A DNA stretch of 64,000 bases from Candidatus Omnitrophota bacterium. GTDB lineage: Bacteria; Omnitrophota; Gorgyraeia; 1-14-0-20-64-10. Made by a program: the position numbers and the translations under genes. The stretch lies in the NCBI GenBank assembly GCA_023248155.1, contig JAHFFE010000007.1, positions 4,401 to 68,400 of the forward strand, in the 5' to 3' direction. Below the pieces are notes generated by a model. It saw nothing but the letters and a program-made list of their open reading frames with translations. It was not told where the DNA came from and did not search any database. Below are positions 45,097-64,000 of this stretch, in pieces (the first letter of the stretch is position 1; every line of letters starts with the position of its first letter).

Positions 45097-45109
45097 AAGG
45101 GAATTTACG

Positions 45110-46507
45110 ATGGCGAAACTGATACTAAAACTTTGGGCAGTGACATTTTTGATTGCCATGGTAACTGCGCCTGCTATGGCAGATCCGACTGATATTCAGC
45201 CAGAGAAGGCCCAGAATTCATCAGCGTATACTCCCGTGGTCACCCCTAACGGAAGCACCCTTTGTTGGAAGATGGTGGATGGCGTTAAGGAGTTCCACCT
45301 GACTGTTGAGGAGGTTGAATGGGAGGTGGCTCCCGGCATGAAAATTAAGGCCTGGGGCTACAATGGCCAGACTCCCGGACCTACCCTCGAGGCGGTGGAA
45401 GGTGATCGGGTCCGCATTCTTGTGACGAACAAACTTCCTGAACCGACCGCGGTTCATTGGCACGGAGTCCTTCTTCCCAGCGGAATGGACGGCGTGCAGG
45501 GGCTTACTCAAAAACCGATTATGCCGGGTGAAACTTTCGCCTATGAATTCACGCTCAAGCAGCACGGCACCCAGATGTACCATTCCCACGGCGATGAAAT
45601 GGTCCAGATGGGGCTGGGGGCGATGGGGTTCTTTATCATTCATCCCAAAACTGCTCCCACTAAAATTGACCGGGACTACGCGATCTTTTTGAACGAATGG
45701 TTCGTGAAGCCGGGAACCTCCCGGCCCGACCCGAATGTCATGACCGACTTCAACCTCTTCACCTTCAACAGCCGCGCATTCCCCGGAACCGCTCCGCTTT
45801 TGGCAAGGCCGGGCGAGCGGGTTCGTATTCGTGTCGGGAATGTGGGCCAGGAGTTCCATGCGATTCACCTGCACGGGCATAATTTTAAAATGGTTGGCAC
45901 CGAGGGCGGGGATATTCCGGAATCGGCGCAGTATCCGGAAACAACCGTGGCGATCGGGCCGGGCCAGACGCGCGATTTCGAATTTACCGCCGTTCCCGGA
46001 GACTGGGCGTTTCACTGCCATCTGCGGCATCACCCGATGAACGCCATGGCGCATGATATTCCCAATGTGATCGGTGTCAGCCAAGAAGGCGTGGAGGAGA
46101 AAATCCAGGCGCTTCTGCCGGACTACATGGCGATGGGTGAGAGCGGAATGGGCGAACATTCCGAGCATGCCAAGCATATGCAAGGGCCGGCCAATACGCT
46201 TCCGATGATGGGCGGCGAGGGGCCTTTTGGAAATGTCGGTATGGGCGGCATGTTTACGGTGCTTAAAGTTCACGAGGATGTTCCCGATTTTAAAGACGCG
46301 GATGATTACACGAAACAAGTGAAACTGCCCGGCGATTTCGGATGGTACAAAAATCCCGCGGGAACCGTGGCCGAACTTGCTCCCGGATATGAAAACCAGT
46401 TAACAAAGGAGGGAACGATCTATACCTGCCCGATGCACCCGGAAGTCAGACAGGATAAACCCGGTGCTTGCCCCAAATGCGGCATGACTTTAGAAAAGGA
46501 GAAATAA
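45110..46507 (+). CDS. Multicopper oxidase (CopA/CueO-like) with a Met/His-rich segment and a C-terminal CPMHPE...CPKCGM metal-binding module
   Basis: Copper-site motifs HWHG, HSHGDEM and HCHLRHHPMNAMAH. Met-rich stretch MGESGMGEHSEHAKHMQGPANTLPMMGG. C-terminal [22 protein letters not shown]. Confidence 0.85.
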   Translation: MAKLILKLWAVTFLIAMVTAPAMADPTDIQPEKAQNSSAYTPVVTPNGSTLCWKMVDGVKEFHLTVEEVEWEVAPGMKIKAWGYNGQTPGPTLEAVEGDRVRILVTNKLPEPTAVHWHGVLLPSGMDGVQGLTQKPIMPGETFAYEFTLKQHGTQMYHSHGDEMVQMGLGAMGFFIIHPKTAPTKIDRDYAIFLNEWFVKPGTSRPDPNVMTDFNLFTFNSRAFPGTAPLLARPGERVRIRVGNVGQEFHAIHLHGHNFKMVGTEGGDIPESAQYPETTVAIGPGQTRDFEFTAVPGDWAFHCHLRHHPMNAMAHDIPNVIGVSQEGVEEKIQALLPDYMAMGESGMGEHSEHAKHMQGPANTLPMMGGEGPFGNVGMGGMFTVLKVHEDVPDFKDADDYTKQVKLPGDFGWYKNPAGTVAELAPGYENQLTKEGTIYTCPMHPEVRQDKPGACPKCGMTLEKEK

Positions 46508-46508
46508 A

Positions 46509-46907
46509 ATGCGCAACATAGTAATGGCCGGAATGGCGGCGGCGTTTTTGATGATGTTGGGTTTCTCGAATTTACCGGCGGCTGTGGCGCACGATGCCAA
46601 TATGCCGGGGATGGAGAACGGAAGGGATGTGGCTATTAAAGGGGAACTGGTGGATTCTCTCTGCTATGTGGCGATGGCCGGAAAAGGTTCGGGCCATAAA
46701 CAGTGCGCGATGGATTGCGCGAAAGCCGGAATTCCCGTCAGTATCGTTGAAGAGGGCACCGGTAAGTTGTATACGGTTCTTCCTAAAGAGGACAAGACAG
46801 GGTATCCTGCCAGCGTTATCAGCAAAATGGGCCAACAAGTAACGTTGAAGGGTGATCTTTACGAGACCGGCGGCAATAAGTATGTGACCGTCGAATCGGT
46901 GGAATAA
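46509..46907 (+). CDS. Periplasmic Cys/His/Met-containing protein, putative metal-binding
   Basis: A signal peptide, the motif CYVAMAGKGSGHKQCAMDCAKAG, and location inside the copper operon. Confidence 0.4.
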   Translation: MRNIVMAGMAAAFLMMLGFSNLPAAVAHDANMPGMENGRDVAIKGELVDSLCYVAMAGKGSGHKQCAMDCAKAGIPVSIVEEGTGKLYTVLPKEDKTGYPASVISKMGQQVTLKGDLYETGGNKYVTVESVE

Positions 46908-46912
46908 AGCCG

Positions 46913-47386
46913 ATGCTGTCCGGAGCGCGGCACCTGCAGAATATTCATCCGCTCATCGTTCACTTTCCGATAGCGTTTTTGATCGCTGCCGCGCTCTTTT
47001 ATTTTATGGCGTGGGTTTTTAATAAGGATGATTTTGCCAGAACAGGATTCCGGGTGCTTTTGCTCGGGGCCCTGTCTTTGGCGGTCGCCGTCTGGACAGG
47101 GCTTCGTGCCGAAGACGGAGTCATGGTGGCACTGGATGTGAGGCAGAAGCTTCTTTTGCCCCACGAGCAATTCATGATTGCCACGGCGGTTTTGTGCGCT
47201 ATCGTTACGCTGTGGGCGATTGTCGGAAGGCCTTTTCCGAAAAAAGGAAGAGTCCTGTTTTTAGCGCTGCTTCTCGCGATGGTCATTACGATGACGATCG
47301 GCGCTGATTTTGGCGGGCAGCTTGTTTACGATTACAATGCCGGCGGTAGCTTGCCGCAGCCGATTCACTTTAAAATAGTTCAATGA
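46913..47386 (+). CDS. Small integral membrane protein (DUF2231-like, [10 protein letters not shown] motif)
   Basis: About four predicted TM helices and a conserved [13 protein letters not shown]-terminal helix. It lies between the periplasmic protein and the ATPase. Confidence 0.5.
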
Positions 47387-49494
47387 AATACACCTGTCCG
47401 ATGCATCCGGAAATTATTTTAGATCAACCCGGTTCTTGCCCGAAATGCGGGATGTTTTTGGAGCTTAAAGACGCCGCGGGTTCTCCCGAAGACCTCGAAT
47501 ACAGACAGATGTCGCGCCGGTTCTGGGCGAGCCTCATACTGTCCGTTCCGATTATTTTACTCGCGATCCCAGAATTGATTCCGGGCAATCCTTTGGAAAA
47601 AATTGTTTCCATGCGCGTTATCAACTGGATTGAATTTGCTTTCGCTACGCCGGTGGTGCTCTGGGGCGGGGGGTGGTTTTTTGAGCGCGGGGTTTTATCC
47701 GTTGCGCGGCGAAGCCTTAACATGTTTACGCTGATTGCCTTGGGCGTAGGAGCGGCTTATGGGTACAGCGTGATCGCGCTGGTTTTCCCTTCCGTATTTC
47801 CGAGCGCTTTCCAAAGTCACGGCGGTGAAGTCCCGGTTTATTTCGAAGCCGCGGCAGCGATCACGGTGCTGGTTATTTTGGGTCAGCTCCTGGAGCTCAG
47901 GGCGCGCCGCCAGACCAGTGACGCCATCAAGGCGCTTCTTAATCTTGCGCCAAAGACGGCAAGGGTGATTCGGGATAACAACAACGAAGAAGATATCCCA
48001 TTGGAACAGGTAGCGGTGGGAGATAGGCTTCGCGTGCGTCCCGGCGAAAGTATTCCCACGGACGGCGTGGTTCTGGAAGGATCCAGCTCTGTGGATGAGT
48101 CGATGGTGACCGGGGAACCCATTCCCGTGGAAAAAGTCGCGGGGTCTAAAGTCGTGGGAGGGACGGTCAGCGGCACCGGCAGTTTTATTATGCGCGCCGA
48201 GCGCGTGGGAGCCGACACGCTCCTTTCTAAAATCGTTCATATGGTGAGCGAGGCGCAAAGAAGCCGCGCCCCCATTCAGCGCCTTGTCGACAGTGTCTCA
48301 GCCTATTTTGTGCCGGCGGTTATTCTTGCGGCGATTTCGACCTCTGTTATTTGGGGATTTTTCGGACCTGAACCGCGAATGGCTTATGCGATCGTGAATG
48401 CCGTCGCCGTGTTGATCATCGCTTGCCCGTGCGCTTTGGGACTGGCCACGCCCATGTCCATTATGGTCGGTGTCGGCCGCGGCGCGACGATGGGCATTCT
48501 GATCAAGAACGCCGAAGCCCTTGAGACTTTCCGGAAAGTCGACACGCTTATTTTCGACAAAACAGGCACGCTCACGGAAGGCAAGCCCAGACTTGTTTCC
48601 ATTCTGCCCGAAGCAGGAGTAAGCGAAGAAGAATTTCTGCATCTCGCGGCCAGCCTTGAACGGGGGAGTGAACACCCGCTGGCGCAGGCGATCGTGAAGG
48701 GAGCCGAATCCAAAAATGTCCGGTTCGTCGAAACCAAAGCTTTTAAATCAGTGACGGGTAAAGGCGTGGCGGGAACCGTCGACGGAAAAAATATCGTTCT
48801 TGGAAATCAGGAATGGATCGAAGAGCTGGGCATTTCATCGGCGCGGTTGATACCCAAGGCCGACGAATTGCGGAAGGACGGACAGACCGTCATGTTTTTA
48901 GCGGATAAGGGCCGTCTGCTTGGAATTCTCGGCGTTTCAGATTCCATCAAGGCTTCTACTCCCGAAGCGATCCGGATGCTGCATAACGAGGGACTGCGTT
49001 TAATCATGGTCACCGGAGACAATCAAGTGACTGCCGATGCGGTAGCGCGCAAGCTCGGCATTGATGAGGTGCGGGCCGGAATATTGCCCGAGAAAAAAGG
49101 AGAAATTATCAGGGAACTCCAGGCCAAAGGGCATTTGGTTGCCATGGCTGGTGACGGTGTCAATGATGCCCCCGCGCTGGCGCAGGCAAATGTGGGCATC
49201 GCGATGGGCAGCGGAACGGATGTCGCCATCGAAAGCGCGGGCGTGACGCTGGTGAAAGGAGATCTGCGGGGCATCGCCAAGGCAAGGAAATTAAGCCGTG
49301 CGACCATGCGCAATATCCGCGAAAACCTCTTTTTCGCTTTCGTTTATAATATTCTCGGAGTTCCCGTCTCGGCCGGGATTCTCTATCCATTTTTCGGCAT
49401 CCTGCTTTCTCCGGTCATCGCGAGCACGGCGATGAGTTTTAGTTCGGTATCGGTCATCGTGAACGCTTTACGATTGCGCAGGGTTTCGCTTTAG
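47383..49494 (+). CDS. copA: Copper-translocating P1B-type ATPase with an N-terminal CPMHPE...CPKCGM metal-binding module
   Basis: [24 protein letters not shown], the CPC motif ([11 protein letters not shown]), [15 protein letters not shown], and 8 TM segments. Confidence 0.9.
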
Positions 49495-54758: not shown

Positions 54759-56239
54759 GCGAGGTCACGATGGAAAAAAAGCATTCGCCGGGCCGGATCC
54801 TTGAACCGTTGCTGAAGGATCTCGGTCAGGACGGCCGGCGTGCGTTCCAGCTTCCTAAAACCGATCTGCCGGCTGTTGCCCCGGAGACGCAAATTCCGTC
54901 GGACTGGGTGCGCAGCAAACCGGCCGCGCTGCCGGAGCTCAGCGAGCGCGACCTGGTCAAACATTTCATGCGGCTGGCCCATTTGAATTTCTCGGTCGAG
55001 ACTAATTTTTATCCGCTCGGTTCCTGCACGATGAAATACAATCCGCGCGTTCATGAAGAGATCGCTGGTCTCTCCGGTTTCGCGCAGCTGCATCCGTACG
55101 CGCCCGATTCTCTGTCGCAAGGCACGCTGCAACTGTTGTTTGAACTGGAACGGATGCTTGCGGAAGTTCTCGGCATGGATGCCGTCACATTGCAGCCGGC
55201 CGCCGGCGCGCACGGCGAATTCACGGCGCTGTTAATGGCGCGCGCCTATCATGAGGCGCAGGGCCGTCCGCGCAAAAAAGTAGTGGTGACCGATTCATCG
55301 CACGGAACCAACCCGGCCAGCGCCGCTCTCTGCGGGTTTGATGTCGTCGAAGTGAAATCGAACGCGCGCGGCCGCGTTTCGCTGGAGTCGCTCGCGTCGG
55401 TCGTCGATCACGACACCGCGGTTTTTATGATGACCAACCCGAACACGCTCGGCTTGTTCGAAGAAGAAGTGATGAAAGTGACACAGCTCGTTCATGACAA
55501 AGGCGGACTGGTTTACATGGACGGCGCGAATATGAACGCGTTGCTGGGGCAGGTGCGCCCCGGCGATATGGGTTTCGACATGGTCCATGTGAATATCCAT
55601 AAAACATTTTCGATTCCGCATGGCAGCGGCGGCCCCGGCGGCGGGCCCGTCGGCGTGAAGGCCCATTTGAAGCCGTTCCTGCCAGCGCCGATGGTGGCCT
55701 CCGGCTCGGCTGGTTACCGCCTGGAATCGCCGGGTCCGCAGTCGATCGGCCGCGTCCGCTCGTTCTTCGGGAATGTCGGCGCGCTGGTACGCGCTTACGC
55801 CTACATTCGCAGTCTCGGAACCGACGGCTTGAAACAGGTTTCAGAAGGCGCGATCTTAAACGCCAACTACCTGAAGGAACTTTTGCGCGGCATCTACCCG
55901 ATTGCCGTCGATGAATCGTGCATGCATGAATTCATTGCCTCAGCCAAAGAAATGAAAGCCAGCCAGGGGATCAAGGCGATGGATATCGCCAAGCGCCTGC
56001 TTGATTACGGTTTTTACGCGCCGACAATCTGCTTCCCGCTGATCGTCGAAGAAGCGCTGATGATCGAGCCGTCCGAAACCGAATCGCGGCAGACGCTCGA
56101 ATCATTTGCCGACGCGCTGGCCAAGATCAAGCACGAATCGGAAGAAACGCCAGAGCGGCTTCGCACGGCGCCGCACCGGATGCCGGTTTCCCGCCTCGAC
56201 GAAGTTCAAGCCGCGCGCGAGCCAAATCTGCGTTGGTAG
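54755..56239 (+). CDS. gcvPB: Glycine dehydrogenase (decarboxylating) subunit 2
   Basis: A 494-aa C-terminal-subunit P protein with PLP-lysine context (HVNIHKTFSIPHGGGGPG). Confidence 0.9.
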   Translation: MSEVTMEKKHSPGRILEPLLKDLGQDGRRAFQLPKTDLPAVAPETQIPSDWVRSKPAALPELSERDLVKHFMRLAHLNFSVETNFYPLGSCTMKYNPRVHEEIAGLSGFAQLHPYAPDSLSQGTLQLLFELERMLAEVLGMDAVTLQPAAGAHGEFTALLMARAYHEAQGRPRKKVVVTDSSHGTNPASAALCGFDVVEVKSNARGRVSLESLASVVDHDTAVFMMTNPNTLGLFEEEVMKVTQLVHDKGGLVYMDGANMNALLGQVRPGDMGFDMVHVNIHKTFSIPHGSGGPGGGPVGVKAHLKPFLPAPMVASGSAGYRLESPGPQSIGRVRSFFGNVGALVRAYAYIRSLGTDGLKQVSEGAILNANYLKELLRGIYPIAVDESCMHEFIASAKEMKASQGIKAMDIAKRLLDYGFYAPTICFPLIVEEALMIEPSETESRQTLESFADALAKIKHESEETPERLRTAPHRMPVSRLDEVQAAREPNLRW

Positions 56240-56772
56240 GTTTTTGCGTTTGGTTCACGGGACTGCCTGCTTCCGGAAAGACGACTCACGCCCAGTTGCT
56301 TGCTCAATCCCTCAAGCGCCAATCCTGCCCAGTTGAACTATTCGATGGGGACCGTCTCCGTCAGGAGATTTCCCGCGGGTTAGGTTTCAGCAAGCAGGAC
56401 AGGGATCTCCATGTTCAACGGGTAGGGGAACTCGCGTTAGAGCGCGTGCGGGCCGGACAGGTGGCCGTCTGCGCGTTGGTGAGCCCCTACCGGGTGGCGC
56501 GCGATCACTGCCGCGCGATGATAGGAACCGACCGGTTTATTGAAGTTTTTGTGCAGGCTCCTTTATCGGAGTGTGAGCGCAGAGATCCTAAGGGATTGTA
56601 CGCAAAAGCCCGCTCAGGGAAATTGCCCGGCTTCACCGGTATCAGTGATCCGTATGAACCGCCGTTGGCCCCCGACCTCGTTTTAGATACAGCGGTTTGT
56701 TCCATACAGGAAAATGTTCAACGGCTGGACTCTTATCTGACGCATCAGGGATTTCTGCCATGGCCCCACTAG
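56233..56772 (+). CDS. cysC: Adenylylsulfate (APS) kinase
   Basis: A TTG start overlaps gcvPB. P-loop VWFTGLPASGKTT (APS kinase: IWLTGLSGSGKST), plus DGD..R and LSExERRDPKGLY motifs. Confidence 0.7.
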   Translation: MVGFCVWFTGLPASGKTTHAQLLAQSLKRQSCPVELFDGDRLRQEISRGLGFSKQDRDLHVQRVGELALERVRAGQVAVCALVSPYRVARDHCRAMIGTDRFIEVFVQAPLSECERRDPKGLYAKARSGKLPGFTGISDPYEPPLAPDLVLDTAVCSIQENVQRLDSYLTHQGFLPWPH

Positions 56773-57390: not shown

Positions 57391-58101
57391 TTGCAATACT
57401 CCGTTGTTATTCCAGTGCACAATGAACGTGAATCGATCCGCATTTTGCATGAAGAGTTAGAGGAAGTCCTGAGATTTCTTGGCCGGACTTACGAAATTAT
57501 TTTCGTGGACGACGGGTCAGCGGATGGAACGACAGAAGTTCTGCGATCTTTGTGTTCCAGTCATCCGGAACTGCTCGCGGTCTATTTTCCGAATCGGCGC
57601 GGGCAGTCTGCGGCTTTTGAGACAGGATTTGCGCTTTCCTCAGGGGATGTGGTCATTACTCTGGATGCGGACCTTCAAAACAACCCGCGGGATATCCCCC
57701 GTTTGTTGGAAAAACTGGAAGAAGGCTACGATGTGGTCTGCGGATGGAGAACGCACCGTTGCGACCCCTGGCATCGCAGGTGGAGTTCTGGGGCTGCCAA
57801 CTTTATGCGCCGTAGATTTTTAGGCGAGAAAATACATGATGTCGGGTGCTCTTTAAGGGTTTACCGAAAACAAGTGCTCCGGAAATTGAGTTTGGGCGCG
57901 TATGGTCATCGTTTTATAACCGCTTTGCTCTTGAGATCAGGTTTGAAGGTTTGTGAGGTTTCGGTCCGGCATCACCCTCGCCGGTTTGGCCGTTCAAAAT
58001 ATAACTTAAGAAACCGGTTTTATGAAAGCACAGCGGGATTTGTTCGTCTTCTTCTCAGTCGATCGCCGGATCTATTTGATCAAAAGCAGTGTTCCTCCTG
58101 A
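57391..58101 (+). CDS. GT2-family glycosyltransferase, polyprenyl-phosphate sugar synthase type (ArnC/DPM1-like)
   Basis: A TTG start. YSVVIPVHNERESI...YEIIFVDDGSADGT...DADLQNNP fits GT2 DxD/ED topology. The C-terminal region has a predicted TM segment. Confidence 0.8.
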   Translation: MQYSVVIPVHNERESIRILHEELEEVLRFLGRTYEIIFVDDGSADGTTEVLRSLCSSHPELLAVYFPNRRGQSAAFETGFALSSGDVVITLDADLQNNPRDIPRLLEKLEEGYDVVCGWRTHRCDPWHRRWSSGAANFMRRRFLGEKIHDVGCSLRVYRKQVLRKLSLGAYGHRFITALLLRSGLKVCEVSVRHHPRRFGRSKYNLRNRFYESTAGFVRLLLSRSPDLFDQKQCSS

Positions 58102-59534
58102 ATTCCATTTTAAGCCGTCCTATTCTCGGCCGGCCAAGCGCGGCCAGAATCCGCGCAATTCTCTTTCTTGTTGTAGTCATGGGCCTGGCGTTTCGTATCT
58201 TTGGTTTATCGTTGGAATCTTTCTGGCGCGATGAGATACGGACCGTTACGGTGTCGAGCTGGCCGATCCCACAGCTGATTTTCGACCGGCTTCACCGCGG
58301 ACATAGTCCCGTTTATTTTCTTCTCATGCACGGCTGGTTGCGGCTTGTCCCTCTCACGGAGTTTTGGATACGGTTTCCGTCCGCGGTTATGGGGGCCGCG
58401 AGCATTCCATTGATGTTTTTTGTTGGCAGGTCATTGCTGGGAACTCGAGCAGCTCTTGTTGCCGCTCTTTTTTTCTCTCTCAATACTTTTCAAATCGAAT
58501 ATGCGCAGGAAGCCCGGATGTACAGCGCTGTGGTTTTCTTCGGACTCTTATCTACGAGTTGTCTTCTGAATGTCCTCAAATTCCGAACGAGATACGGGTG
58601 GAACGCGTACGGAATTGCCTCCTTGGTAGGGCTTTCGTTGAGCGCGTCTTATTTCTTTGTATTGATTGGACAGGTTTTCTTGGGGCAGGCGCGTCTTGCG
58701 GTTGATTCCGTCGATCGGAAACGTTTTTATGGCTGGTTGTTTTCTTTGATCGTTGTTTTTGTCCTTCTCTGGTCAGTGATTTTCTTTCTTTCCCGAGGTT
58801 ACGGCATACTAAGCGTTGCTCCGGCCCATTTTTCTGTTTGGGAGTGGCTCCAGGGAATCTTTCAAAAATTTTGGTCTCTTGAGTACTTGCCAATAGACCT
58901 GAATCTTACGGCATTCGTGATTTTCGGACTTATTCCTGGAATTCTTGGGTACGAGTTGTGGGTTTCAGGTTTATCCCGTGAGCGGATCGCCCTGTTGTTC
59001 TGGTTATTTTTTCCCGTGGTGTTGCTGGCGCTCTTATCGCCGTGCATTCGGCATGATATCCGATACCTATTGTTTCCTGCCTGCGCCTGGCCGCTTCTTT
59101 TGGGAGCTTTTTTTGCTGTTAGGAGACGAAGCGCAATCAGGGTGGGTGTGTTCACGGTGGTTCTTTGCTTGAATTTGTTAAACCTGGCCTACTATTATTT
59201 TCTGCCGCAAAAACCTTCCTGGAGAGAAATCGGATCTTACGCAATGCAGCACGCTCGGGGTAGAGAACCGATGTACGTCTATCCGGAGGACCTGGTTTAT
59301 GACTTGAGCTACTATTATAAAAGCGGCGAGGTCCGACCCCTCCGATTGCAATCCGATTTTACCAATCGAGAGATATTGGATGCCGGCGGCGGGTGGATTG
59401 TTTTGGTTTGGCAGTCGCACGGTTCCGATCCGGGTTTGCGGCGATGGCTGTACTTGATCGAACGCCGTTTCGGCGCTGTGTATCACCGTTCATGGAGAGG
59501 GGCTCAGCTTTATCATTATGAATCCTCGCTCTGA
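58089..59534 (+). CDS. Integral membrane glycosyltransferase of the PMT_2/ArnT (GT39/GT83-like) family
   Basis: A multi-TM 481-aa protein with a first-loop WRDE motif (FWRDEIRT). It overlaps the GT2 gene. This is the classic pairing of a polyprenyl-P-sugar synthase with a transferase. Confidence 0.65.
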   Translation: MFLLNSILSRPILGRPSAARIRAILFLVVVMGLAFRIFGLSLESFWRDEIRTVTVSSWPIPQLIFDRLHRGHSPVYFLLMHGWLRLVPLTEFWIRFPSAVMGAASIPLMFFVGRSLLGTRAALVAALFFSLNTFQIEYAQEARMYSAVVFFGLLSTSCLLNVLKFRTRYGWNAYGIASLVGLSLSASYFFVLIGQVFLGQARLAVDSVDRKRFYGWLFSLIVVFVLLWSVIFFLSRGYGILSVAPAHFSVWEWLQGIFQKFWSLEYLPIDLNLTAFVIFGLIPGILGYELWVSGLSRERIALLFWLFFPVVLLALLSPCIRHDIRYLLFPACAWPLLLGAFFAVRRRSAIRVGVFTVVLCLNLLNLAYYYFLPQKPSWREIGSYAMQHARGREPMYVYPEDLVYDLSYYYKSGEVRPLRLQSDFTNREILDAGGGWIVLVWQSHGSDPGLRRWLYLIERRFGAVYHRSWRGAQLYHYESSL

Positions 59535-60249
59535 GCTAAAAAAGCACTACGCTAAAATCGGTGATTCGACAAACGATTTTAGATGCCAGGCCTTGTTTGC
59601 CTGGATATGCCGTCATCTGGAACAATCTCCCGTGTTGGATTTTGGGTGCGGGACGGGCGGATTCCTCCGTTTTCTGAAGAACAAAAAAGGCTGGCTAGGA
59701 GTGGGGCTGGATCCCGACCCCGAGATGGTTCTCCGTGCGAAAGCGTTTGATCCCGCGCTGGATTTTTGTGTAGGCGGGATAGGAACCGCTGCAGCTCTCC
59801 AAGGCGCTTTCGGGACGATTGTCCTTATCGATGTGCTGGAGCATATTTCCGATGATGAGCAGACGCTCGTTCAACTTCAGGATAAACTTCTGCCTGGCGG
59901 GCGGCTGATCGTTGCCGTTCCTGCCTATCCCGGATTGTTCGGTCAAAGGGATTTAGCCATAGGACATTACCGGCGATATCAAAAAGCGGAGCTGGTCAAA
60001 AAAATCGAGAAAGCCGGATATGCCGTTCGACAAATTCGGTATTGGAATATGCTCGGTGTTATTCCTTACGCAGTCAGCCAAAAACTCTTGGGAAAGACCG
60101 AGGGTTGCTCATGGAGGAATGCGGACTCTGGGGGATTGCTGGAAAAAATTATGCGGCAGATTCTTCATGGCTGGTACGTCTGTGTAGAGAACAACATCAG
60201 CGCGGGCTGGGGCCTCACCTTGCTGTGCGTTGCGTCGAAGGTGAGTTAA
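59518..60249 (+). CDS. Class I SAM-dependent methyltransferase
   Basis: Motif I VLDFGCGTGGF and motif II LIVAVPA. Confidence 0.8.
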   Translation: MNPRSELKKHYAKIGDSTNDFRCQALFAWICRHLEQSPVLDFGCGTGGFLRFLKNKKGWLGVGLDPDPEMVLRAKAFDPALDFCVGGIGTAAALQGAFGTIVLIDVLEHISDDEQTLVQLQDKLLPGGRLIVAVPAYPGLFGQRDLAIGHYRRYQKAELVKKIEKAGYAVRQIRYWNMLGVIPYAVSQKLLGKTEGCSWRNADSGGLLEKIMRQILHGWYVCVENNISAGWGLTLLCVASKVS

Positions 60250-62207
60250 AACCCCTCTCCGTAAACCTGAGTGAAGTCGGTATTCCGGATGAATGCTTCG
60301 ACTTCTTCGTAATTTTCTATTTGTTCCTGCAGTGGAAGCAAAGATTGTTTCACGAGATTGCTCGATACCCGTCTTTTTGGCAATTCCAGAAAATCAAATA
60401 TTTTAGAGTCAAATGTTTTCTGGGGATCCAGCGAAAACTCCTCATAGGACAACCACAGACATTTTCTTTTTTTATTTAAACATTGAGCCGCGTGGCTAAG
60501 GTCGGCCTTGATCCCATTGTGGTAGGCCAATGCCTGATCAGGAAGTAACTTTATCGCGACGGGGCGGGGTATTTCATCGCAGTCATTACTTTGCAGCCAT
60601 ACTCCCGTTTTAGTCGCTGTGAGATAGGACACGAATTGGTTTAGGGTATTTAGACGATAAAGAACAATCCATTTCACCTCTGGAAATTCGCGGCTAAGTT
60701 CTTGAAAAGATATTTTTAGCCGTCTTAGATGACCGAAGAAAATCTTGAGTCCGCATACAGTTGCGTTACAGTTATTTAAGGTATAGCGCAAGTGACGGAA
60801 AACGTCTTTTTTAGAAGTAAAACATTTGCCCAGGCCGTAGGTTTGAGCGGTGGACAGGACTTCATCTGCGAAAGAGGCTGCAGGATGGGAGTTCAGATAA
60901 TTAATGAGAAGGTTGCTGCCGGTTCTTTCATGGCAAAGAATGAACACCGGTTTTTCGAGTTTCTTTTTTTTGAGGTAATAATGAGCGGCAATTCTTATTC
61001 TAAATAAACTTCGCTTAAGGCCAAGAGGGAGTTTCTTTTTGAGGTCTGCGAAAATTGTCGTAAATTTATTCCCAACAGGTTTTATTAAGTTGAGCCACAG
61101 GTTTTTCCAATGCATTAGGTACATTGCCAAGCCGCTTTTTTTTCCGGCATAGTATGCCGGATTGGGAAGGAAATATCCGGCTGTGTAGCGGATCCGGTCG
61201 ATCGGTGACCGAAGCTGTCTCGATAAATCAGTTTTCGGAACACGTTCTTTTTGATAAATTTCCGAAGTTTTTTCAAATATGAAGAATTGAATCAGCCTCT
61301 CCGTCGTCCGATCGTTTTTGAAAGTGTTTTGAACGTCTTCCAATAGCACTTTGATTTTTTTTCTGGAAGCAGCGGCTGGTTCTGGGAACTGGCTTAAGAT
61401 TTTTTCCACCGCCGTGTTTCCAAGCAGGTTCATGACGAGTGCCAGGTCCAAAAGTTGGATCAGGCTCGGGTTGTACATTTCTGCGGTGTGAAGCGCTAGA
61501 TGGCCGGCTGCGTCCTCGTCCGAGAATACCCGAACATTTTCTCCGAAAGCGGGGTAAGGTTTTGAATTCGCCCACGCTTCTTCGAGATTCATTTCAATTA
61601 CATGGCCGCCGATTGGGTAGTTGAGCCGCCAGTGTAAATCAATGTCCAACCCATCTTTTTCAAACGAAGCGCGGCCGCCGGGATTTTCCTTCAGCAGCTT
61701 ATGGGGGGCAAAGTGTATCTGGTCATGCCACCGATTTTTAGTCGGATATTTCCTTAAACCGAAGCCTTCACCTAGAAGGAGTTGTTCGACGGCGGTTAGA
61801 TCGCTTTCTCGGATTAGGATATCGATGTCAGCCATTTCCCTGAACGACATCTTTTCGTATACGCGCAGGCTCAGGTCGATTCCTTTAAGAGGGATGACCG
61901 GAATATTGTGATGAGAAAGATCCAGGGCGATCTTCTTGAACTGCGACAGCTTGTGATGATTGTGCCATTCGGACTGCATCAGTGTCTTGGTCAATGCTGC
62001 GCACACTTTTGGGTCCATGGAAGAAAACGCCCCGTTCTTCTCCAGCACAAAAGCGACGAATCCAAGTACGCGCTGGTTTCGTCCGATACGGAGCATTTCT
62101 GCCCAATTCAAAACAGAAAGATCCAGAATGTTTGGATCCAGATGTTCTGTTTGAGGTGAGGCGATCCACCGAAGGCATTGAAGGATCAATTTCATTTCAC
62201 TTTCCAT
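60246..62207 (-). CDS. Fusion of an uncharacterised nucleotidyltransferase (NTP_transf_5-like) with a Stf0-type sulfotransferase domain
   Basis: A 653-aa minus-strand ORF in an AT-richer region. The N-terminal half has a DxD-like nucleotidyltransferase pattern (REMADIDILIRESD). The C-terminal half has a PAPS-binding-like FILCHERTGSNLL (Stf0: RSGST-LL). Confidence 0.6.
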   Translation of the reverse strand: MESEMKLILQCLRWIASPQTEHLDPNILDLSVLNWAEMLRIGRNQRVLGFVAFVLEKNGAFSSMDPKVCAALTKTLMQSEWHNHHKLSQFKKIALDLSHHNIPVIPLKGIDLSLRVYEKMSFREMADIDILIRESDLTAVEQLLLGEGFGLRKYPTKNRWHDQIHFAPHKLLKENPGGRASFEKDGLDIDLHWRLNYPIGGHVIEMNLEEAWANSKPYPAFGENVRVFSDEDAAGHLALHTAEMYNPSLIQLLDLALVMNLLGNTAVEKILSQFPEPAAASRKKIKVLLEDVQNTFKNDRTTERLIQFFIFEKTSEIYQKERVPKTDLSRQLRSPIDRIRYTAGYFLPNPAYYAGKKSGLAMYLMHWKNLWLNLIKPVGNKFTTIFADLKKKLPLGLKRSLFRIRIAAHYYLKKKKLEKPVFILCHERTGSNLLINYLNSHPAASFADEVLSTAQTYGLGKCFTSKKDVFRHLRYTLNNCNATVCGLKIFFGHLRRLKISFQELSREFPEVKWIVLYRLNTLNQFVSYLTATKTGVWLQSNDCDEIPRPVAIKLLPDQALAYHNGIKADLSHAAQCLNKKRKCLWLSYEEFSLDPQKTFDSKIFDFLELPKRRVSSNLVKQSLLPLQEQIENYEEVEAFIRNTDFTQVYGEGF

Positions 62208-62248
62208 AAAAAGCTATTGTACACTATTCCTATTCCCGAAAGGATCGC

Positions 62249-62506
62249 ATGGCTACGGTAGACAAGAAAAAAGTACTTTGGCGGGAGGTGGCCGATCAAA
62301 CGGTCATTCTACGGATGGAGACTGGATTCTCTTATTCACTCGATGGGGCCGCCCGTTTGATCTGGAGCGGAGTGGTGATGGGAAAGAGTTCGGAAGAGAT
62401 TGCCGCGGAATTGTCTCGGGCCTATGCGATTGATGAGCGTACCTCCAAACAAGATGTCCAGGCGTTTTTGGAAGATCTCTGCAAAGAAGGCTTGATTGAT
62501 CCCTAG
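62249..62506 (+). CDS. PqqD-family RiPP recognition element (RRE) protein 1
   Basis: An 85-aa ORF with VILRMETGFSYSLDGAARLIWSGVVMGKSSEEIAAEL...FLEDLCKEGLI, the typical PqqD/B1 pattern. Confidence 0.7.
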   Translation: MATVDKKKVLWREVADQTVILRMETGFSYSLDGAARLIWSGVVMGKSSEEIAAELSRAYAIDERTSKQDVQAFLEDLCKEGLIDP

Positions 62507-62529
62507 TTTCTCCAAAGGAACAAGCATCG

Positions 62530-62853
62530 ATGAAAATGAATAACGCAAAGAAGGGCCCTTTTCTCTGCAGGGCGGAGCACGTGGTTTGGAAGATTATCAA
62601 GGATAAGGTTGTCCTGCTGAATCTCGACAGCGGAGCTTATTTTGAAACGAATGGATTGGGTCTGGATATTTTTAAGCTGTGCGATGGAAAAAAAACTCTT
62701 GAAGAGATCGCTTCCATTGTCAGTTCCAAATTCAAGAAAGGAACGGACCGGGTTTACAAAGAATCTAAAAGTTTTATAGAGGAGCTTGAGAAACAGAACT
62801 TGGTGAAGGCTCTAAAAAAGTCTCTGTCCGTTATTCGCCCGATAAGAAGGTAA
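62530..62853 (+). CDS. PqqD-family RiPP recognition element (RRE) protein 2
   Basis: A 107-aa ORF with VVLLNLDSGAYFETNGLGLDIFKLCDGKKTLEEIASIV...FIEELEKQNLV. Confidence 0.7.
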   Translation: MKMNNAKKGPFLCRAEHVVWKIIKDKVVLLNLDSGAYFETNGLGLDIFKLCDGKKTLEEIASIVSSKFKKGTDRVYKESKSFIEELEKQNLVKALKKSLSVIRPIRR

Positions 62854-62938
62854 CTTGGCGCAGGTTGCCGAGGTGTTTTAGTACCGGTTTTTGGTACTTA
62901 GTAGATTTGGTCTTCTTTTGATCCTTCTTTTCACTCAT
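62831..62938 (-). CDS. 35-aa peptide with a lasso-type leader motif (candidate RRE-binding leader/precursor-like peptide)
   Basis: The minus-strand ORF encodes MSEKKDQKKTKSTKYQKPVLKHLGNLRQVTFLSGE. A strong SD GAGGTGG lies 5 nt upstream of the ATG. Its own promoter is listed below. YQKPVLKHLGNLRQVTF matches YxxPxLx3Gx5Tx exactly. It overlaps the last 23 nt of PqqD-like gene 2 on the other strand. Confidence 0.4.
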   Translation of the reverse strand: MSEKKDQKKTKSTKYQKPVLKHLGNLRQVTFLSGE

Positions 62939-62962
62939 AGGTTCCACCTCGCTTTAGGATAG

Positions 62963-62992
62963 AATATAGCAGTGAAACGAACGCCCGTCAAG
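62963..62992 (-). promoter_or_regulatory. Sigma70-like promoter (minus strand) for the 35-aa peptide
   Basis: On the minus strand: TTGACG (plus 62986..62991), an exact 17-nt spacer, then TATATT (plus 62963..62968), ~25 nt upstream of the peptide ATG. Confidence 0.5.
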
Positions 62993-63691
62993 ATTTCTGT
63001 CATTATGCCCGCTTACAACGCTGCCCTTACCATCCGTGCGGCTATTCGTTCGGTTCTTCGTCAAAAAGGCCCATCATTTGAATTATTGATAGCCGACGAT
63101 GCTTCCACCGATTCGACTTGGGGCTGTATTCAGAAATTCCGGCAGGATCCAAGAATCCGATCGTTTCGTTTCCGGCGCAATCGAGGAGTAGCCGCGGCCA
63201 GTAATTATCTGATCAGCGAGGCGAGAGGGAAGTATCTCTCGTCCTGCGATGCCGACGATATGCTTCTGCCCGGCAATTTGCGCCGGCTCGCGCATGTTTT
63301 GGACACCAGTCCTTCTTGTGGAGTGGCCTATGCCGACTCGTTGATCGTATCCTCCTCTCGAACACGAAGGATGGTGTCCCGATCTGCCATTGAGACTTTC
63401 TGGGAGCTTCTCGGCGGACGCTTTACCAACGGTGGGACGCTGATCCGACGATCTTTGGTCAAAAGAATAGGCGGCTATCGTACTCAATTTGTTTTTCTTG
63501 AGGACTGCGACCTTTTTGTCCGCTTGTCCGAGATCACGAAGTTTTACTACGTCAAAGGTAAACCGCTGTATTGTCAGAGGAAGACAAAAGGCTCTCTTTC
63601 CGATCAGTCTCAAAGAAAATTGAGACAAGTTTCCCGGATCATTCTTCGTGATGCGCTCAAGAGGCGGTATGGCTACCAAGCACAGTGGTGA
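62972..63691 (+). CDS. GT2-family glycosyltransferase
   Basis: A GTG start. KISVIMPAYNAALTI...ELLIADDASTDST...CDADD fits GT2 motifs. Confidence 0.8.
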   Translation: MKRTPVKISVIMPAYNAALTIRAAIRSVLRQKGPSFELLIADDASTDSTWGCIQKFRQDPRIRSFRFRRNRGVAAASNYLISEARGKYLSSCDADDMLLPGNLRRLAHVLDTSPSCGVAYADSLIVSSSRTRRMVSRSAIETFWELLGGRFTNGGTLIRRSLVKRIGGYRTQFVFLEDCDLFVRLSEITKFYYVKGKPLYCQRKTKGSLSDQSQRKLRQVSRIILRDALKRRYGYQAQW

Positions 63692-64000
63692 GTCCGGCGT
63701 ACCGGTTCTTATCTCCGGCTCGGCGGCGAATCAGTTAAATCTGGCTTCGGCTTTTGGTTCTAGCATGAAACCCTTCATTCGCTCCGGCGCCGAACTTGTG
63801 TTGGAGCATGTTTCGCCGGCTCGCATTCGGCCGGGCGATATCATCGCCTATGCCGCTCTCTCAGGGGCATCCGTCACGCACCGCGTTGTCAAAGTGTTCA
63901 TTAAAGAAAAAACACTTCTTTTTCTGACCAAAGGGGACAACAAGTCCATTCCAGACCCGATTGTTCATCAAAAACAAATTCTGGGCAGGGTTGTGAAAAT
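63669..64000 (+). CDS. S26-family (signal peptidase I-like) serine peptidase, 3'-truncated by the window end
   Basis: The ATG at 63669 overlaps the GT2 stop. FGSSMKPFIRSG matches the SPase I box B (SxSMxPT, Ser nucleophile). TKGDNKSIPD matches the GDNRxxSxD box. It is open to the window end. Confidence 0.5.
   Translation, partial: MATKHSGESGVPVLISGSAANQLNLASAFGSSMKPFIRSGAELVLEHVSPARIRPGDIIAYAALSGASVTHRVVKVFIKEKTLLFLTKGDNKSIPDPIVHQKQILGRVVK

What the first reader, a model, noticed from the sequence alone, without database searches (positions are those of the whole stretch)
60246..64000. RiPP-like peptide-modification locus: nucleotidyltransferase-sulfotransferase fusion, two PqqD RREs, GT2, S26 peptidase
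Two tandem PqqD-family proteins next to an NTP_transf_5-like/Stf0 sulfotransferase fusion is the accessory gene set described around some proteobacterial lasso peptide clusters. No lasso cyclase or B2 protease is in the window. A GT2 and an S26-type peptidase are present instead. The locus is AT-richer than the rest of the window and has divergent and convergent gene orientation.
Basis: partly seen in the sequence, partly recalled or inferred. Interest (0 to 1): 0.7.

Follow-up and report, generated by a model that had tools for sequence, protein, structure and literature searches.

The report
Cyclase-less lasso-leader glycopeptide gene cluster

Summary
All five gene products match their Pfam or NCBIfam models, and the locus is about 8-9 GC points lower than the rest of the window.

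The main new result is a 35-aa gene on the minus strand (62831-62938), MSEKKDQKKTKSTKYQKPVLKHLGNLRQVTFLSGE. It fits the lasso leader motif YxxPxLx3Gx5Tx in exact register and then stops after 4 residues.

About 35 relatives, from 23 distinct DNA sequences, end the same way, always with Ser, Thr, Cys or Tyr at position +2. Differences between them fall mainly on third codon positions.

In every related locus with enough sequence around it, the peptide lies next to orthologues of PqqD2, the GT2, and a soluble SEC11/SipW-type S26 peptidase that is usually fused to a tandem GNAT. HPr-kinase-like domains, NTP_transf_5, sulfotransferases, more glycosyltransferases and ABC transporters recur. NTP_transf_5-PqqD and GT2-PqqD fusions exist.

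No lasso cyclase or B2 protease appears in the window, in 1.8 kb of extension, or in the flanks of related peptide-bearing loci. The core is too short to form a lasso.

Best reading: a lasso-derived RiPP pathway without a cyclase, which (phospho)glycosylates and sulfates Ser+2. The chemistry is inferred. The family is rare (Omnitrophota and Planctomycetota, mostly groundwater), and I found no description of it in the searchable literature.

The parts
62831..62938 (-). Precursor peptide gene, 35 aa: MSEKKDQKKTKSTKYQKPVLKHLGNLRQVTFLSGE. Residues 1-31 form a Lys-rich lasso-type leader (Y15 at -17, P18 at -14, L20 at -12, G24, T30 at -2). The 'core' is LSGE, with the conserved Ser33 at +2. The 3' end overlaps the 3' end of PqqD2 by 23 nt on the opposite strand.
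   Evidence: ORF found, and called independently by the ENA gene caller. A GAGGTG Shine-Dalgarno sequence lies 6 nt before the ATG. Orthologues occur in more than 25 loci. Differences by codon position are 1235/912/3047.
62963..62991 (-). Sigma-70-like promoter match (TTGACG-17-TATATT with an extended TG) just upstream of the peptide gene.
   Evidence: This is a consensus match only, 10 of 12 positions.
62530..62853 (+). PqqD2: a 107-aa RRE-type PqqD protein, convergent with the peptide gene and overlapping it. Its orthologue flanks the peptide in nearly every related locus.
   Evidence: PF05402 E 8.6e-13; TbiB1 E 6.6e-6; synteny.
62249..62506 (+). PqqD1: an 85-aa RRE-type PqqD protein, divergent from the NTP_transf_5 gene. 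Its type is fused to NTP_transf_5 in L023 and to GT2 in L007.
   Evidence: PF05402 E 6.1e-14; lasso_PqqD models E about 1e-10, below their cutoffs; TbiB1 E 1e-8; fusions.
60246..62207 (-). NTP_transf_5 (pol-beta-fold nucleotidyltransferase, PsmN-like, res 1-390) fused to a PAPS-type sulfotransferase (res about 400-653). The ENA call starts at Met5 (62195).
   Evidence: Pfam. Invariant G105, D123 and D125. AF2 pLDDT about 90 for res 1-390. Fold matches ANT(2'')-Ia, LnuA and FKRP. This fusion was seen only in this organism's own sequence. Free sulfotransferase orthologues at 36-52% identity occur in related loci.
62972..63691 (+). GT2a: a 239-aa GT-A fold family-2 glycosyltransferase, divergent from the peptide gene. 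It is the most conserved enzyme of the cassette (48-71% identity across loci).
   Evidence: PF00535 E 5e-30; synteny and identities; PDB relatives K4CP and SpsA.
63669..64000 (+). First 110 codons of a 510-aa soluble protein that continues to window-equivalent position 65201. It has an S26B (SEC11/SipW-type, Ser32-His71-Asp90) peptidase domain followed by a tandem GNAT.
   Evidence: L001 extension; TIGR02228 above its cutoff; SEC11A/C and Naa30 matches; invariant S32, H71 and D90 and the RGxGIGT motif; tandem-GNAT fold; no transmembrane segment.
59518..60249 (+). SAM-dependent methyltransferase, 243 aa. Probable cluster member.
   Evidence: Methyltransf_23 E 5e-17; orthologues at 33-35% identity in L008, L021 and L036.
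58089..59534 (+). PMT_2 / GT-C membrane glycosyltransferase, 481 aa. Possible cluster member.
   Evidence: PF13231 E 1e-7. A PMT/PMT_2 gene lies in related locus L024.
57391..58101 (+). ArnC/DPM1-like GT2 (polyprenyl-phosphate sugar synthase type), 236 aa. Possible cluster member.
   Evidence: PF00535 E 2e-36; PRK10714 E 2e-46, below its cutoff; paired with the methyltransferase orthologue in L021 and L036.
56233..56772 (+). APS kinase (CysC). Probable PAPS supply for the sulfotransferase.
   Evidence: PF01583 E 2.5e-55. An orthologue at 61% identity sits inside related cluster L038.

Best explanation
This is the core of a RiPP gene cluster that uses the lasso-peptide recognition system (a YxxPxL...T leader plus B1-type PqqD RREs) but makes no lasso.

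Proposed pathway:
1. A 35-aa peptide is translated from its own minus-strand gene.
2. The two RREs bind its leader and deliver it to the tailoring enzymes. PqqD1 serves the NTP_transf_5-sulfotransferase. PqqD2 serves GT2a and the peptidase.
3. The conserved hydroxyl residue two positions past the lasso-type junction (Ser33) is O-modified. This happens either by direct glycosylation (GT2a), or by phosphorylation (an HPr-kinase-like enzyme seen in relatives) followed by sugar transfer onto the phosphate by the PsmN-like NTP_transf_5.
4. Further GT2s extend the sugar. The fused sulfotransferase sulfates it, using PAPS from the nearby APS kinase.
5. The soluble SEC11/SipW-type S26 domain takes the place of the lasso B2 protease and removes the leader.
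6. The fused tandem GNAT acetylates either the new alpha-amine or an amino sugar.

The product would be a very short (2-4 residue), heavily decorated glycopeptide, exported in relatives by an ABC transporter.

Shown: the genes, the domains, the conserved peptide and the synteny. Inferred: the order of steps, the modified residue, the chemistry and the cleavage site.
For: - Precursor: the ORF has a Shine-Dalgarno sequence and a promoter-like site. Its leader register is identical to lasso leaders, with Y at -17, P at -14, L at -12 and T at -2 (PMC10368454).
- Family: 16 peptides were found among 5.8e9 proteins and 21 among 1.84e9 representatives. Most end 4-6 residues after GNLRx[IV], and all the short-tailed ones have S, T, C or Y at +2.
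- Coding selection: across 23 distinct genes, third-position differences are 3047 against 1235 and 912 at positions 1 and 2.
- RREs: both pass PF05402 and are closest to TbiB1.
- Context of loci found by the peptide alone: they carry S26-GNAT, PqqD, GT2/GT4 and HprK-like genes, and several also carry NTP_transf_5, a sulfotransferase or an ABC-2 transporter.
- Fusions linking enzymes to RREs: NTP_transf_5-PqqD (L023), GT2-PqqD (L007) and S26-sulfotransferase (L008).
- NTP_transf_5: the DxD motif is invariant. Its fold matches ANT(2'') entries 5cfs and 4xje, the same entries reported for PsmN, which adds hexoses to phospho-Ser (PMC6993621).
- RRE-dependent kinase precedent: a lasso kinase phosphorylates Ser3 of the core and is strongly enhanced by the RRE (PMC10368454). 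Kinase motifs are kept in relatives.
- Peptidase and GNAT: the S26 triad and the GNAT AcCoA motif are invariant, and the protein is soluble.
- Sulfation supply: an APS kinase orthologue lies inside a related cluster.
Against: - There is no chemistry: no product, modification site or cleavage site has been observed.
- No HPr-kinase-like gene lies in the window or in the 1.8-kb extension, where the contig ends. The phospho route therefore rests on relatives.
- S, T, C and Y at +2 do not all fit a kinase: BsfK does not accept Tyr, and Cys is unlikely.
- GT2a resembles polysaccharide GT-A enzymes (K4CP, SpsA). No solved glycocin-type peptide glycosyltransferase matched at E<=0.001.
- The residues around the lasso-type junction (V/I at -3, F, S or A at -1) are not a classic signal-peptidase A-x-A site.
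- The tandem GNAT is closest to a glucosamine N-acetyltransferase, so N-terminal acetylation is only one option.
- The many glycosyltransferases in relatives, up to eight, would also fit a polymer.
Confidence: 0.55

Rival explanations
1. Peptide-primed glycan. The peptide is not the product but a ribosomal primer or carrier. A long, sulfated, acetylated oligo- or polysaccharide is assembled on its Ser+2 in the cytoplasm and exported by an ABC-2 (Wzm/Wzt-like) transporter. It may then be released or transferred by the S26 peptidase and the GT-C enzyme.
For: - Related clusters carry up to 8 glycosyltransferases (L022).
- ABC-2 type transporters are present in L009, L013, L019, L023 and L036.
- ArnC-like GT2 and PMT_2 (GT-C) genes lie in the window and in L024.
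- GT2a and the tandem GNAT resemble polysaccharide and amino-sugar enzymes.
- The core is only 2-4 residues, so most of the product's mass would be sugar.
Against: - No initiating phosphoglycosyltransferase, Wzy/Wzx or chain-length regulator turned up in the Pfam annotation and scans of these loci.
- The window itself shows only 3-4 glycosyltransferases.
- I know of no precedent for peptide-primed polysaccharide synthesis in bacteria.
- This differs from the best explanation only in glycan length and fate.
Confidence: 0.2
2. An ordinary cell-envelope polysaccharide or glycolipid locus. The PqqD proteins and the small ORF would be incidental or regulatory, for example a stand-alone leader that activates enzymes allosterically, with no peptide being modified.
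For: Glycosyltransferases, a methyltransferase, a sulfotransferase, GNAT domains and a GT-C enzyme dominate the neighbourhood. No product is known.
Against: - The peptide is conserved under purifying selection, with an invariant hydroxyl or thiol at +2.
- RREs are fused to NTP_transf_5 and to GT2.
- A soluble peptidase is always adjacent.
- A search starting from the peptide alone recovers the same enzyme set.
Confidence: 0.08
3. A conventional lasso peptide cluster whose cyclase, B2 protease and true precursor lie beyond the end of the window. The genes seen here would be only its tailoring set.
For: The leader motif, B1-like RREs and K/N/sulfotransferase-type genes are all lasso features (PMC8498205). 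The sequence beyond window-equivalent position 65777 could not be obtained.
Against: - The core is 2-4 residues with no Asp/Glu at positions 7-9.
- No Asn_synthase or transglutaminase-like gene lies in the 1.8-kb extension.
- None lies in the flanks (up to 10 kb each side) of L004, L008, L009, L019, L020, L023, L024 or L036.
- The only Asn_synthase seen (L007) carries a GATase domain, lies among polysaccharide genes, and no peptide was found in that locus.
Confidence: 0.04
4. A peptide-derived small molecule or cofactor, like mycofactocin or PQQ. The C-terminal residues would be chemically rebuilt, excised by the peptidase and then glycosylated.
For: - The short peptide, RRE, peptidase and GT2 layout mirrors MftA/B/E/F.
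- The second GT2's best NCBIfam hit is MftF (E 1.7e-17, far below its cutoff).
- L009 has a radical SAM/SPASM gene nearby.
Against: - No radical SAM enzyme, flavoenzyme or other redox enzyme is in the window cluster or in most relatives.
- The variable C-terminal residues after +2 (none, M, F, A, GE, GV...) argue against a fixed rebuilt scaffold.
Confidence: 0.05

Closest known systems
Tailoring module of kinase-containing lasso peptide clusters (paeninodin PadeK, pseudomycoidin PsmK/PsmN, Bradymonas BsfK/BsfN/BsfB1)
   Same: - Leader with YxxPxL at -17..-12 and T at -2.
- A discrete B1-type PqqD RRE.
- An NTP_transf_5 / ANT(2'')-fold 'N' enzyme with a DxD motif.
- Ser at or near the C-terminus, or just after the junction, as the acceptor.
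- HPr-kinase-like enzymes in relatives.
- Sulfotransferase genes, which have also been noted in such clusters.
(PMC8498205, PMC6993621, PMC10368454.)
   Different: - No cyclase and no B2 protease.
- A core of only 2-4 residues.
- An S26-tandem-GNAT protein in place of B2.
- Several GT2/GT4 enzymes.
- Two RRE paralogues.
- The nucleotidyltransferase is fused to a sulfotransferase in this window.
- The phyla are Omnitrophota and Planctomycetota.
Glycocins (sublancin, glycocin F; SunS/ThuS-type GT2 peptide S-/O-glycosyltransferases)
   Same: A family-2 glycosyltransferase next to a ribosomal peptide. The acceptor position tolerates Ser, Thr and Cys, as S-/O-glycosyltransferases do (the latter point from my own knowledge of ThuS).
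   Different: - No double-glycine leader, C39 transporter or disulfide hairpin.
- This system depends on an RRE.
- GT2a gave no solved glycocin glycosyltransferase among its PDB sequence matches at E<=0.001.
- The enzyme set implies many more modifications than one sugar.
Mycofactocin pathway (MftA-F)
   Same: A roughly 30-aa peptide whose extreme C-terminus is the only part that matters, a PqqD-type RRE, a dedicated peptidase, and a GT2 that builds an oligosaccharide on the product.
   Different: No radical SAM enzyme (MftC) or flavoenzyme (MftD). The peptidase family differs (S26, not creatininase-like). The leader is lasso-type.
SynChlorMet cassette and HprK-related PqqD systems (TIGRFAM-defined, function unknown)
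   Same: PqqD-related protein plus an HPr-kinase-like ScmC-type protein. PqqD2 hits ScmD at E 1e-7, and ScmC Pfam hits occur on the kinase domains of relatives.
   Different: All scores are far below the equivalog cutoffs. The cassette's radical SAM/SPASM pair is absent here. That cassette is defined without the S26, GT2a or NTP_transf_5 genes (from my own knowledge).

Membership tests
Lasso peptide biosynthetic gene cluster | Leader with YxxPxL at -17..-12 and Thr (or Ile/Val) at -2 | tested here: met
   Y15, P18, L20, G24 and T30 are in exact register. The motif is as defined in PMC10368454.
Lasso peptide biosynthetic gene cluster | B1-type PqqD RRE | tested here: met
   PF05402 above the gathering score for both proteins. 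Best PDB relative is TbiB1, E 1e-8 and 7e-6. The NCBIfam lasso_PqqD models are hit, but below their cutoffs.
Lasso peptide biosynthetic gene cluster | Core peptide long enough for a 7-9-residue macrolactam, with Asp/Glu at position 7-9 | tested here: not met
   The core is LSGE (4 aa). The family's cores are mostly 2-4 aa.
Lasso peptide biosynthetic gene cluster | Asn-synthetase-like lasso cyclase (C) | tested here: not met
   Absent from the window genes scanned, 31.8-64 kb, from the 1.8-kb extension, and from the flanks of L004, L008, L009, L019-L024 and L036. Sequence beyond window-equivalent position 65777 was not available.
Lasso peptide biosynthetic gene cluster | Transglutaminase-like Cys protease (B2) | tested here: not met
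   No such Pfam hit in the same set of loci. An S26 Ser/His peptidase is conserved instead.
Lasso K/N tailoring module (PsmK/PsmN, BsfK/BsfN) | NTP_transf_5-type nucleotidyltransferase with a catalytic DxD | tested here: met
   PF14907 E 5.6e-38. D123 and D125 are invariant. The fold matches ANT(2'') entries 5cfs and 4xje, as reported for PsmN.
Lasso K/N tailoring module (PsmK/PsmN, BsfK/BsfN) | HPr-kinase-like peptide kinase with the H...GxxGxGKS...DD motif | tested here: inconclusive
   Not present in the window or its extension, where the contig ends inside the next GT2. Present with an intact motif in L004, L008, L009, L011, L014, L019, L023 and L025.
RiPP (generic) | Genetically encoded precursor adjacent to RRE-bearing modification enzymes and a peptidase | tested here: met
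   RRE-enzyme fusions.
RiPP (generic) | A post-translationally modified peptide product | not testable with these tools
   Needs expression and mass spectrometry.
Glycocin | SunS-like GT2, a double-glycine leader with a C39 ABC transporter, and a Cys-stabilised helical hairpin | tested here: not met
   The peptide has no Cys pair and no GG motif. GT2a gave no solved glycocin glycosyltransferase among its PDB matches at E<=0.001.
Mycofactocin/PQQ-type peptide-derived cofactor | Radical SAM/SPASM enzyme partnered with the RRE | tested here: not met
   No Radical_SAM hit in the window cluster or its extension. Only L009 has one nearby.
Type I signal peptidase (S26) | Catalytic Ser plus His/Lys, and a membrane anchor | tested here: inconclusive
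   Ser32, His71 and Asp90 are invariant, and TIGR02228 is above its cutoff. No hydrophobic segment reaches the transmembrane threshold, so the fold and triad are met but the membrane-bound secretory role is not.

The most novel reading that the evidence does not exclude
These clusters define a new RiPP class. The lasso leader and B1 recognition pair has been detached from lasso formation and now directs assembly of a multi-sugar, sulfated and acetylated glycan on a single residue of a 2-4-residue core. In effect this is a ribosomally primed glycoconjugate, released by a cytoplasmic SEC11-like peptidase. It is found in Omnitrophota and Planctomycetota from groundwater.
Probability: 0.35. Interest if true: 0.85.

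Novelty: new variant of a known kind. Interest (0 to 1): 0.72.

Why it matters
- It would show that the lasso leader/RRE recognition system is a portable module that evolution reused without the lasso fold. That bears on how RiPP classes arise.
- It gives the uncharacterised NTP_transf_5 family (PF14907) and a soluble SEC11/SipW-type peptidase a concrete, testable peptide substrate.
- A 2-4-residue core carrying most of its mass as sugar and sulfate blurs the line between RiPPs and glycoconjugates.
- It points to unexplored chemistry in uncultured Omnitrophota and Planctomycetota.
- The system is small enough (a 35-aa peptide and about six enzymes) to reconstitute in E. coli.

Tried and rejected
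- **NCBIfam on the peptide:** no precursor family matched, even at E up to 10.
- **NCBIfam on the fusion protein:** no family matched.
- **Sequence beyond 64000:** only 1.8 kb was recovered, from an identical ENA contig. The 85-kb NCBI contig listed for these proteins was not returned by the look-up of encoding contigs. The genome was not among the genome-contig hits, and cluster look-up gave no accession or organism name.
- **First peptide profile search:** It was rerun with the sequences reordered.
- **Literature:** searches for NTP_transf_5, PF14907, RRE with glycosyltransferase and sulfotransferase, HPr kinase with RRE, and Omnitrophota with RiPP found no description of this cassette.
- **Sulfotransferase structure:** the sulfotransferase half of the AF2 model was unusable (pLDDT below 50), because the alignment covered it with one sequence only.
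- **PDB sequence search with the fusion:** nothing significant.
- **Rfam, 56-64 kb:** no hits.
- **S26 as a C-terminal trimming enzyme:** I considered that the S26 domain might trim residues after Ser+2 to expose a C-terminal Ser. I rejected this as its sole role, because S26 is equally conserved where Ser is already the last residue (L012, L020, L021, L024).
- **L007 Asn synthase as a lasso cyclase:** rejected. It carries GATase domains, lies among polysaccharide genes, and no peptide was found in that locus.

Full report
**1. Checking the observation**

- The minus-strand ORF 60246-62207 (653 aa) matches NTP_transf_5 (PF14907, E 5.6e-38, residues 34-272) and Sulfotransfer_3 (E 9.7e-11), with a weak Stf0 match.
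- ORFs 62249-62506 and 62530-62853 both pass the PqqD model (E 6e-14 and 9e-13).
- ORF 62972-63691 is a GT2 (E 5e-30).
- The last ORF starts at 63669 and runs off the window.
- An ENA metagenome contig (L001) is 100% identical over the 501 bases I aligned and extends 1,777 bases further. On it the last ORF is 510 aa. Residues 25-111 match archaeal/SipW-type signal peptidase I (TIGR02228, 59.3 bits against a cutoff of 51.85). GNAT domains follow. Next comes a second GT2, a paralogue of the first, where the contig ends.
- GC content falls to 0.445-0.466 at 60-63 kb, against about 0.54 for the window.

**2.

Between PqqD2 and the GT2, on the minus strand, lies a 35-codon ORF (62831-62938): MSEKKDQKKTKSTKYQKPVLKHLGNLRQVTFLSGE.

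- The ENA gene caller called it independently.
- It has a GAGGTG Shine-Dalgarno sequence 6 nt upstream of the ATG.
- A sigma-70-like promoter match lies at 62991-62963 (a consensus match only).
- Its sequence fits the lasso leader motif in exact register. YxxPxL occupies positions -17 to -12 and Thr occupies -2, as defined in PMC10368454. Here these are Y15, P18, L20, G24 and T30.
- Only four residues, LSGE, follow the position where a lasso core would begin.

**3. The peptide defines a conserved, rare family**

- Loci found through homologues of the NTP_transf_5 domain carry the same kind of peptide:
  - L004: ...KYQKPALKRLGNLKQVTFLSM
  - L008: ...KYNKPTLKKLGNLRKITFFSM
  - L012: ...KYQKPTLKRLGNLRQITFLS
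  - L009: ...SYEPPRLTREGNLRLVSSMC
  - L013...AYEPPRLTREGNLRLISSMTA
- A profile of six peptides found 16 significant called peptides among 5.8 billion proteins.
- A profile of those 16 found 21 among 1.84 billion cluster representatives.
- A metagenome scan added 15 loci.
- Almost all members are 32-46 aa and end 4-6 residues after GNLRx[IV]. Observed tails are TFLS, TFLSM/F/A, TFLSGE, TFASL, TFGS, TSFS, TSFT, TSFSGV, TSFSSY, TAFY, TAWT, TSMY, TQMS, TQLS, TTLS, THFSF, TGFSF, SSFYLE, SSMS, SAMS, SSMC and SSMT[ALP].
- The residue at +2, counted from the lasso-type junction, is Ser, Thr, Cys or Tyr in every short-tailed member. The residue at +1 is hydrophobic or small.
- Across 23 distinct DNA versions, pairwise differences fall 1235/912/3047 on codon positions 1/2/3. 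Synonymous codon differences outnumber non-synonymous ones, 2171 to 1310. The ORF is therefore under purifying selection as a protein.
- A few more distant hits share the leader but have long tails or repeated units (P0045, P0049, P0050, P0054, P0057, P0058). The leader type is evidently shared with other RiPP families.

**4. Conserved neighbourhood**

I labelled ORFs in all fetched loci by BLAST against the window's proteins and used the Pfam annotation supplied with the loci.

- In most loci the peptide gene is convergent with a PqqD2 orthologue (30-52% identity) and usually overlaps it.
- Next to it lie a GT2a orthologue (48-71% identity, the best-conserved enzyme) and a protein with the S26 domain.
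- The S26 domain appears in several forms:
  - fused to a tandem GNAT (window, L009, L012, L013, L019, L020, L021, L023, L024, L028, L032, L036);
  - fused to a single GNAT-like domain (L033);
  - fused to a sulfotransferase (L008);
  - without a fused domain (L004, L025, L038).
- Loci found from the peptide alone (L019-L022) show the same set. That is an independent test of the association.
- Recurrent further members:
  - HPr-kinase-like/ScmC-like domains, often fused to a GT2 (L004, L008, L009, L011, L014, L019, L021, L023, L025, L036), with an intact H...GxxGAGKS...SDE motif in the eight checked;
  - NTP_transf_5;
  - one or two sulfotransferases (36-52% identity to the window's domain);
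  - extra GT2 and GT4 enzymes, up to eight in L022;
  - methyltransferases, MBOAT and HTTM proteins;
  - ABC-2 or other ABC transporters.
- Domain fusions tie the enzymes to the RRE: NTP_transf_5-PqqD in L023 and GT2-PqqD in L007.
- L038 carries an APS kinase 61% identical to the window's (56233-56772) inside the cluster. L024 has a PMT_2 gene. L021 and L036 have the ArnC-like GT2 and methyltransferase pair.
- The window's cluster therefore probably starts near 57.4 kb, or at 56.2 kb if the kinase is included. Genes scanned further upstream, at 35.8-56 kb, are unrelated: a subtilase, OmpA, copper resistance genes and the glycine cleavage system.

**5. No lasso machinery**

- No Asn-synthetase-like cyclase or transglutaminase-like protease occurs among the window genes scanned or in the extension.
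- None occurs in the flanks (up to 10 kb each side) of the related peptide-bearing loci, several of which lie on contigs of 50-310 kb.
- The only Asn synthase seen (L007) has GATase domains and lies among polysaccharide genes. No peptide was found in that locus.
- With 2-4 core residues and no acceptor Asp/Glu at positions 7-9, a macrolactam cannot form.

**6. What the individual proteins look like**

- **RREs.** The best solved relative of both PqqD proteins is TbiB1, the lasso leader-binding RRE (E 1e-8 and 6.6e-6).
- **NTP_transf_5 domain.**
  - It is modelled with pLDDT about 90.
  - It matches the pol-beta-fold O-nucleotidyltransferases ANT(2'')-Ia and LnuA, and more weakly FKRP.
  - The matched entries 5cfs and 4xje are the ones Zyubko et al. 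found for PsmN. PsmN is the lasso tailoring enzyme needed to add one or two hexoses to the phosphorylated C-terminal Ser of pseudomycoidin. Its D134/D136 pair is essential (PMC6993621).
  - The window protein and its homologues keep G105, D123 and D125.
- **Fusion to a sulfotransferase.** This was seen only in this organism's own sequence (P0001).
- **S26 domain.**
  - It keeps Ser32 (GxSMxPF), His71 (THRVVK) and Asp90 (TKGDN) in all seven close homologues.
  - By sequence it resembles SEC11A/C.
  - The protein has no segment hydrophobic enough for a membrane anchor. It is therefore a soluble, presumably cytoplasmic, peptidase rather than a secretory signal peptidase.
- **C-terminal roughly 340 residues.**
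  - They fold as a tandem GNAT.
  - The closest structures are a glucosamine N-acetyltransferase (5kf1, E 8e-14), MAB_4324, VipF and MshD.
  - The second GNAT keeps the RGxGIGT acetyl-CoA motif.
  - By sequence it resembles the N-alpha-acetyltransferase Naa30.

**7. Most likely mechanism**

Shown: a conserved ribosomal peptide with a lasso-type leader, B1-like RREs, and a fixed set of adjacent enzymes, some of them fused to RREs.

Inferred:
1. The RREs bind the YxxPxL leader and present the peptide to the enzymes.
2. The hydroxyl or thiol residue at +2 (Ser33 here) is the modification site.
3. Modification is glycosylation. It happens either directly, by GT2a, or through a phosphate installed by an HPr-kinase-like enzyme, with NTP_transf_5 then acting as PsmN does. 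BsfK offers a precedent. It is a lasso kinase that phosphorylates Ser3 of the core and is strongly stimulated by its RRE (PMC10368454).
4. Additional GT2s extend the glycan, and the sulfotransferase adds sulfate from PAPS supplied by the APS kinase.
5. The S26 domain removes the leader in place of B2. The fused tandem GNAT acetylates the new amine or an amino sugar.

Weak points:
- No kinase gene lies within the sequence available for this organism.
- Tyr and Cys at +2 fit a glycosyltransferase better than a kinase.
- The junction is not a classical A-x-A site.
- GT2a looks like polysaccharide GT-A enzymes.

**8. Rivals**

- **Peptide-primed oligo- or polysaccharide, with the same parts but a longer glycan (0.2).** This is the most serious alternative. 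The many glycosyltransferases and the ABC-2 transporters in relatives favour it.
- **Plain polysaccharide locus with an incidental peptide (0.08).** This is hard to square with the peptide's conservation, the RRE fusions and the peptide-first search.
- **Ordinary lasso cluster continuing off-window (0.04).** The core length and all the long related contigs contradict it.
- **Mycofactocin-like cofactor route (0.05).** The cluster lacks any redox or radical SAM enzyme.

**9. Comparison and novelty**

- The system works like the K/N tailoring module of lasso clusters. It shares the leader, the RRE and the N enzyme with them. It fails three defining lasso features: core, cyclase and B2.
- It is not a glycocin and not a mycofactocin system.
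- Ten literature searches, including PF14907, NTP_transf_5, RRE with glycosyltransferase and sulfotransferase, and Omnitrophota with RiPP, found no description of this cassette.
- Named relatives come from Omnitrophota (L010, L013), Planctomycetia (L012, L014) and one bin labelled Parcubacteria (L022). Many of the others come from groundwater metagenomes.
- I rate it a new variant of a known kind: a RiPP built from lasso-derived parts. It has a fair chance (about 0.35) of being accepted as a new RiPP class if the chemistry is confirmed.

**10. Verdict**

Interest is 0.72.

The single most useful next step is co-expression of the 35-aa peptide with the six neighbouring genes, followed by mass spectrometry. 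Alongside that, the rest of the source contig should be retrieved.

Noticed in passing
window 5227-35734 (+): Four consecutive giant ORFs (3051, 1957, 3917 and 1312 aa) cover about 30 kb. Pfam finds almost nothing in them: only short SIS-like, ROK-like and GHMP-kinase-like stretches in the first three and no hit in the fourth.
   Followed up: partly
window 56233-56772 (+): An APS kinase gene (PF01583, E 2.5e-55) overlaps both neighbours (gcvPB and an LplA-like gene). The ENA gene caller did not call it on the identical contig. A 61%-identical copy sits inside related cluster L038.
   Followed up: partly
L023 6400-7734; L007 19605-21194: Natural fusions of the RRE to enzymes: NTP_transf_5-PqqD (444 aa) and two GT2-PqqD proteins. 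These could be used as ready-made constructs to test RRE-dependent catalysis.
   Followed up: partly
P0045, P0049, P0058 (no locus fetched): These precursor-like proteins carry two to four tandem repeats of the same YEPPRL..LGNLR leader-type unit, each followed by a longer variable segment. They suggest multi-core precursors that use the same leader type in other pathways.
   Followed up: no
L020 3422-4939; L024 12061-12876: HTTM (vitamin K-dependent gamma-carboxylase-like) domain proteins lie within or beside two of the related clusters. MBOAT acyltransferases lie beside PqqD2 in L008 and L033.
   Followed up: no
L004 8578-9627 (+): An ArnC-like GT2 is split over two adjacent ORFs on the plus strand (42% and 34% identity to the window's GT2 at 57391-58101). 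The JGI annotation calls an unannotated 223-aa gene on the opposite strand here. This may be a frameshift, a pseudogene or a miscall.
   Followed up: no
L011 6464-6598 (+): A divergent candidate precursor, MNVTDKKKDDIPKTDKLKKKYQAPSVKKYNKLHRRALGS, lies directly upstream of an S26-domain ORF. It keeps YxxP and a C-terminal Ser but lacks the GNLR block.
   Followed up: no
window 43669-49494 (+): A copper-homeostasis set: an outer-membrane efflux protein, a multicopper oxidase with an HMBD domain, and a P-type ATPase with an HMBD domain. It is unrelated to the finding.
   Followed up: no
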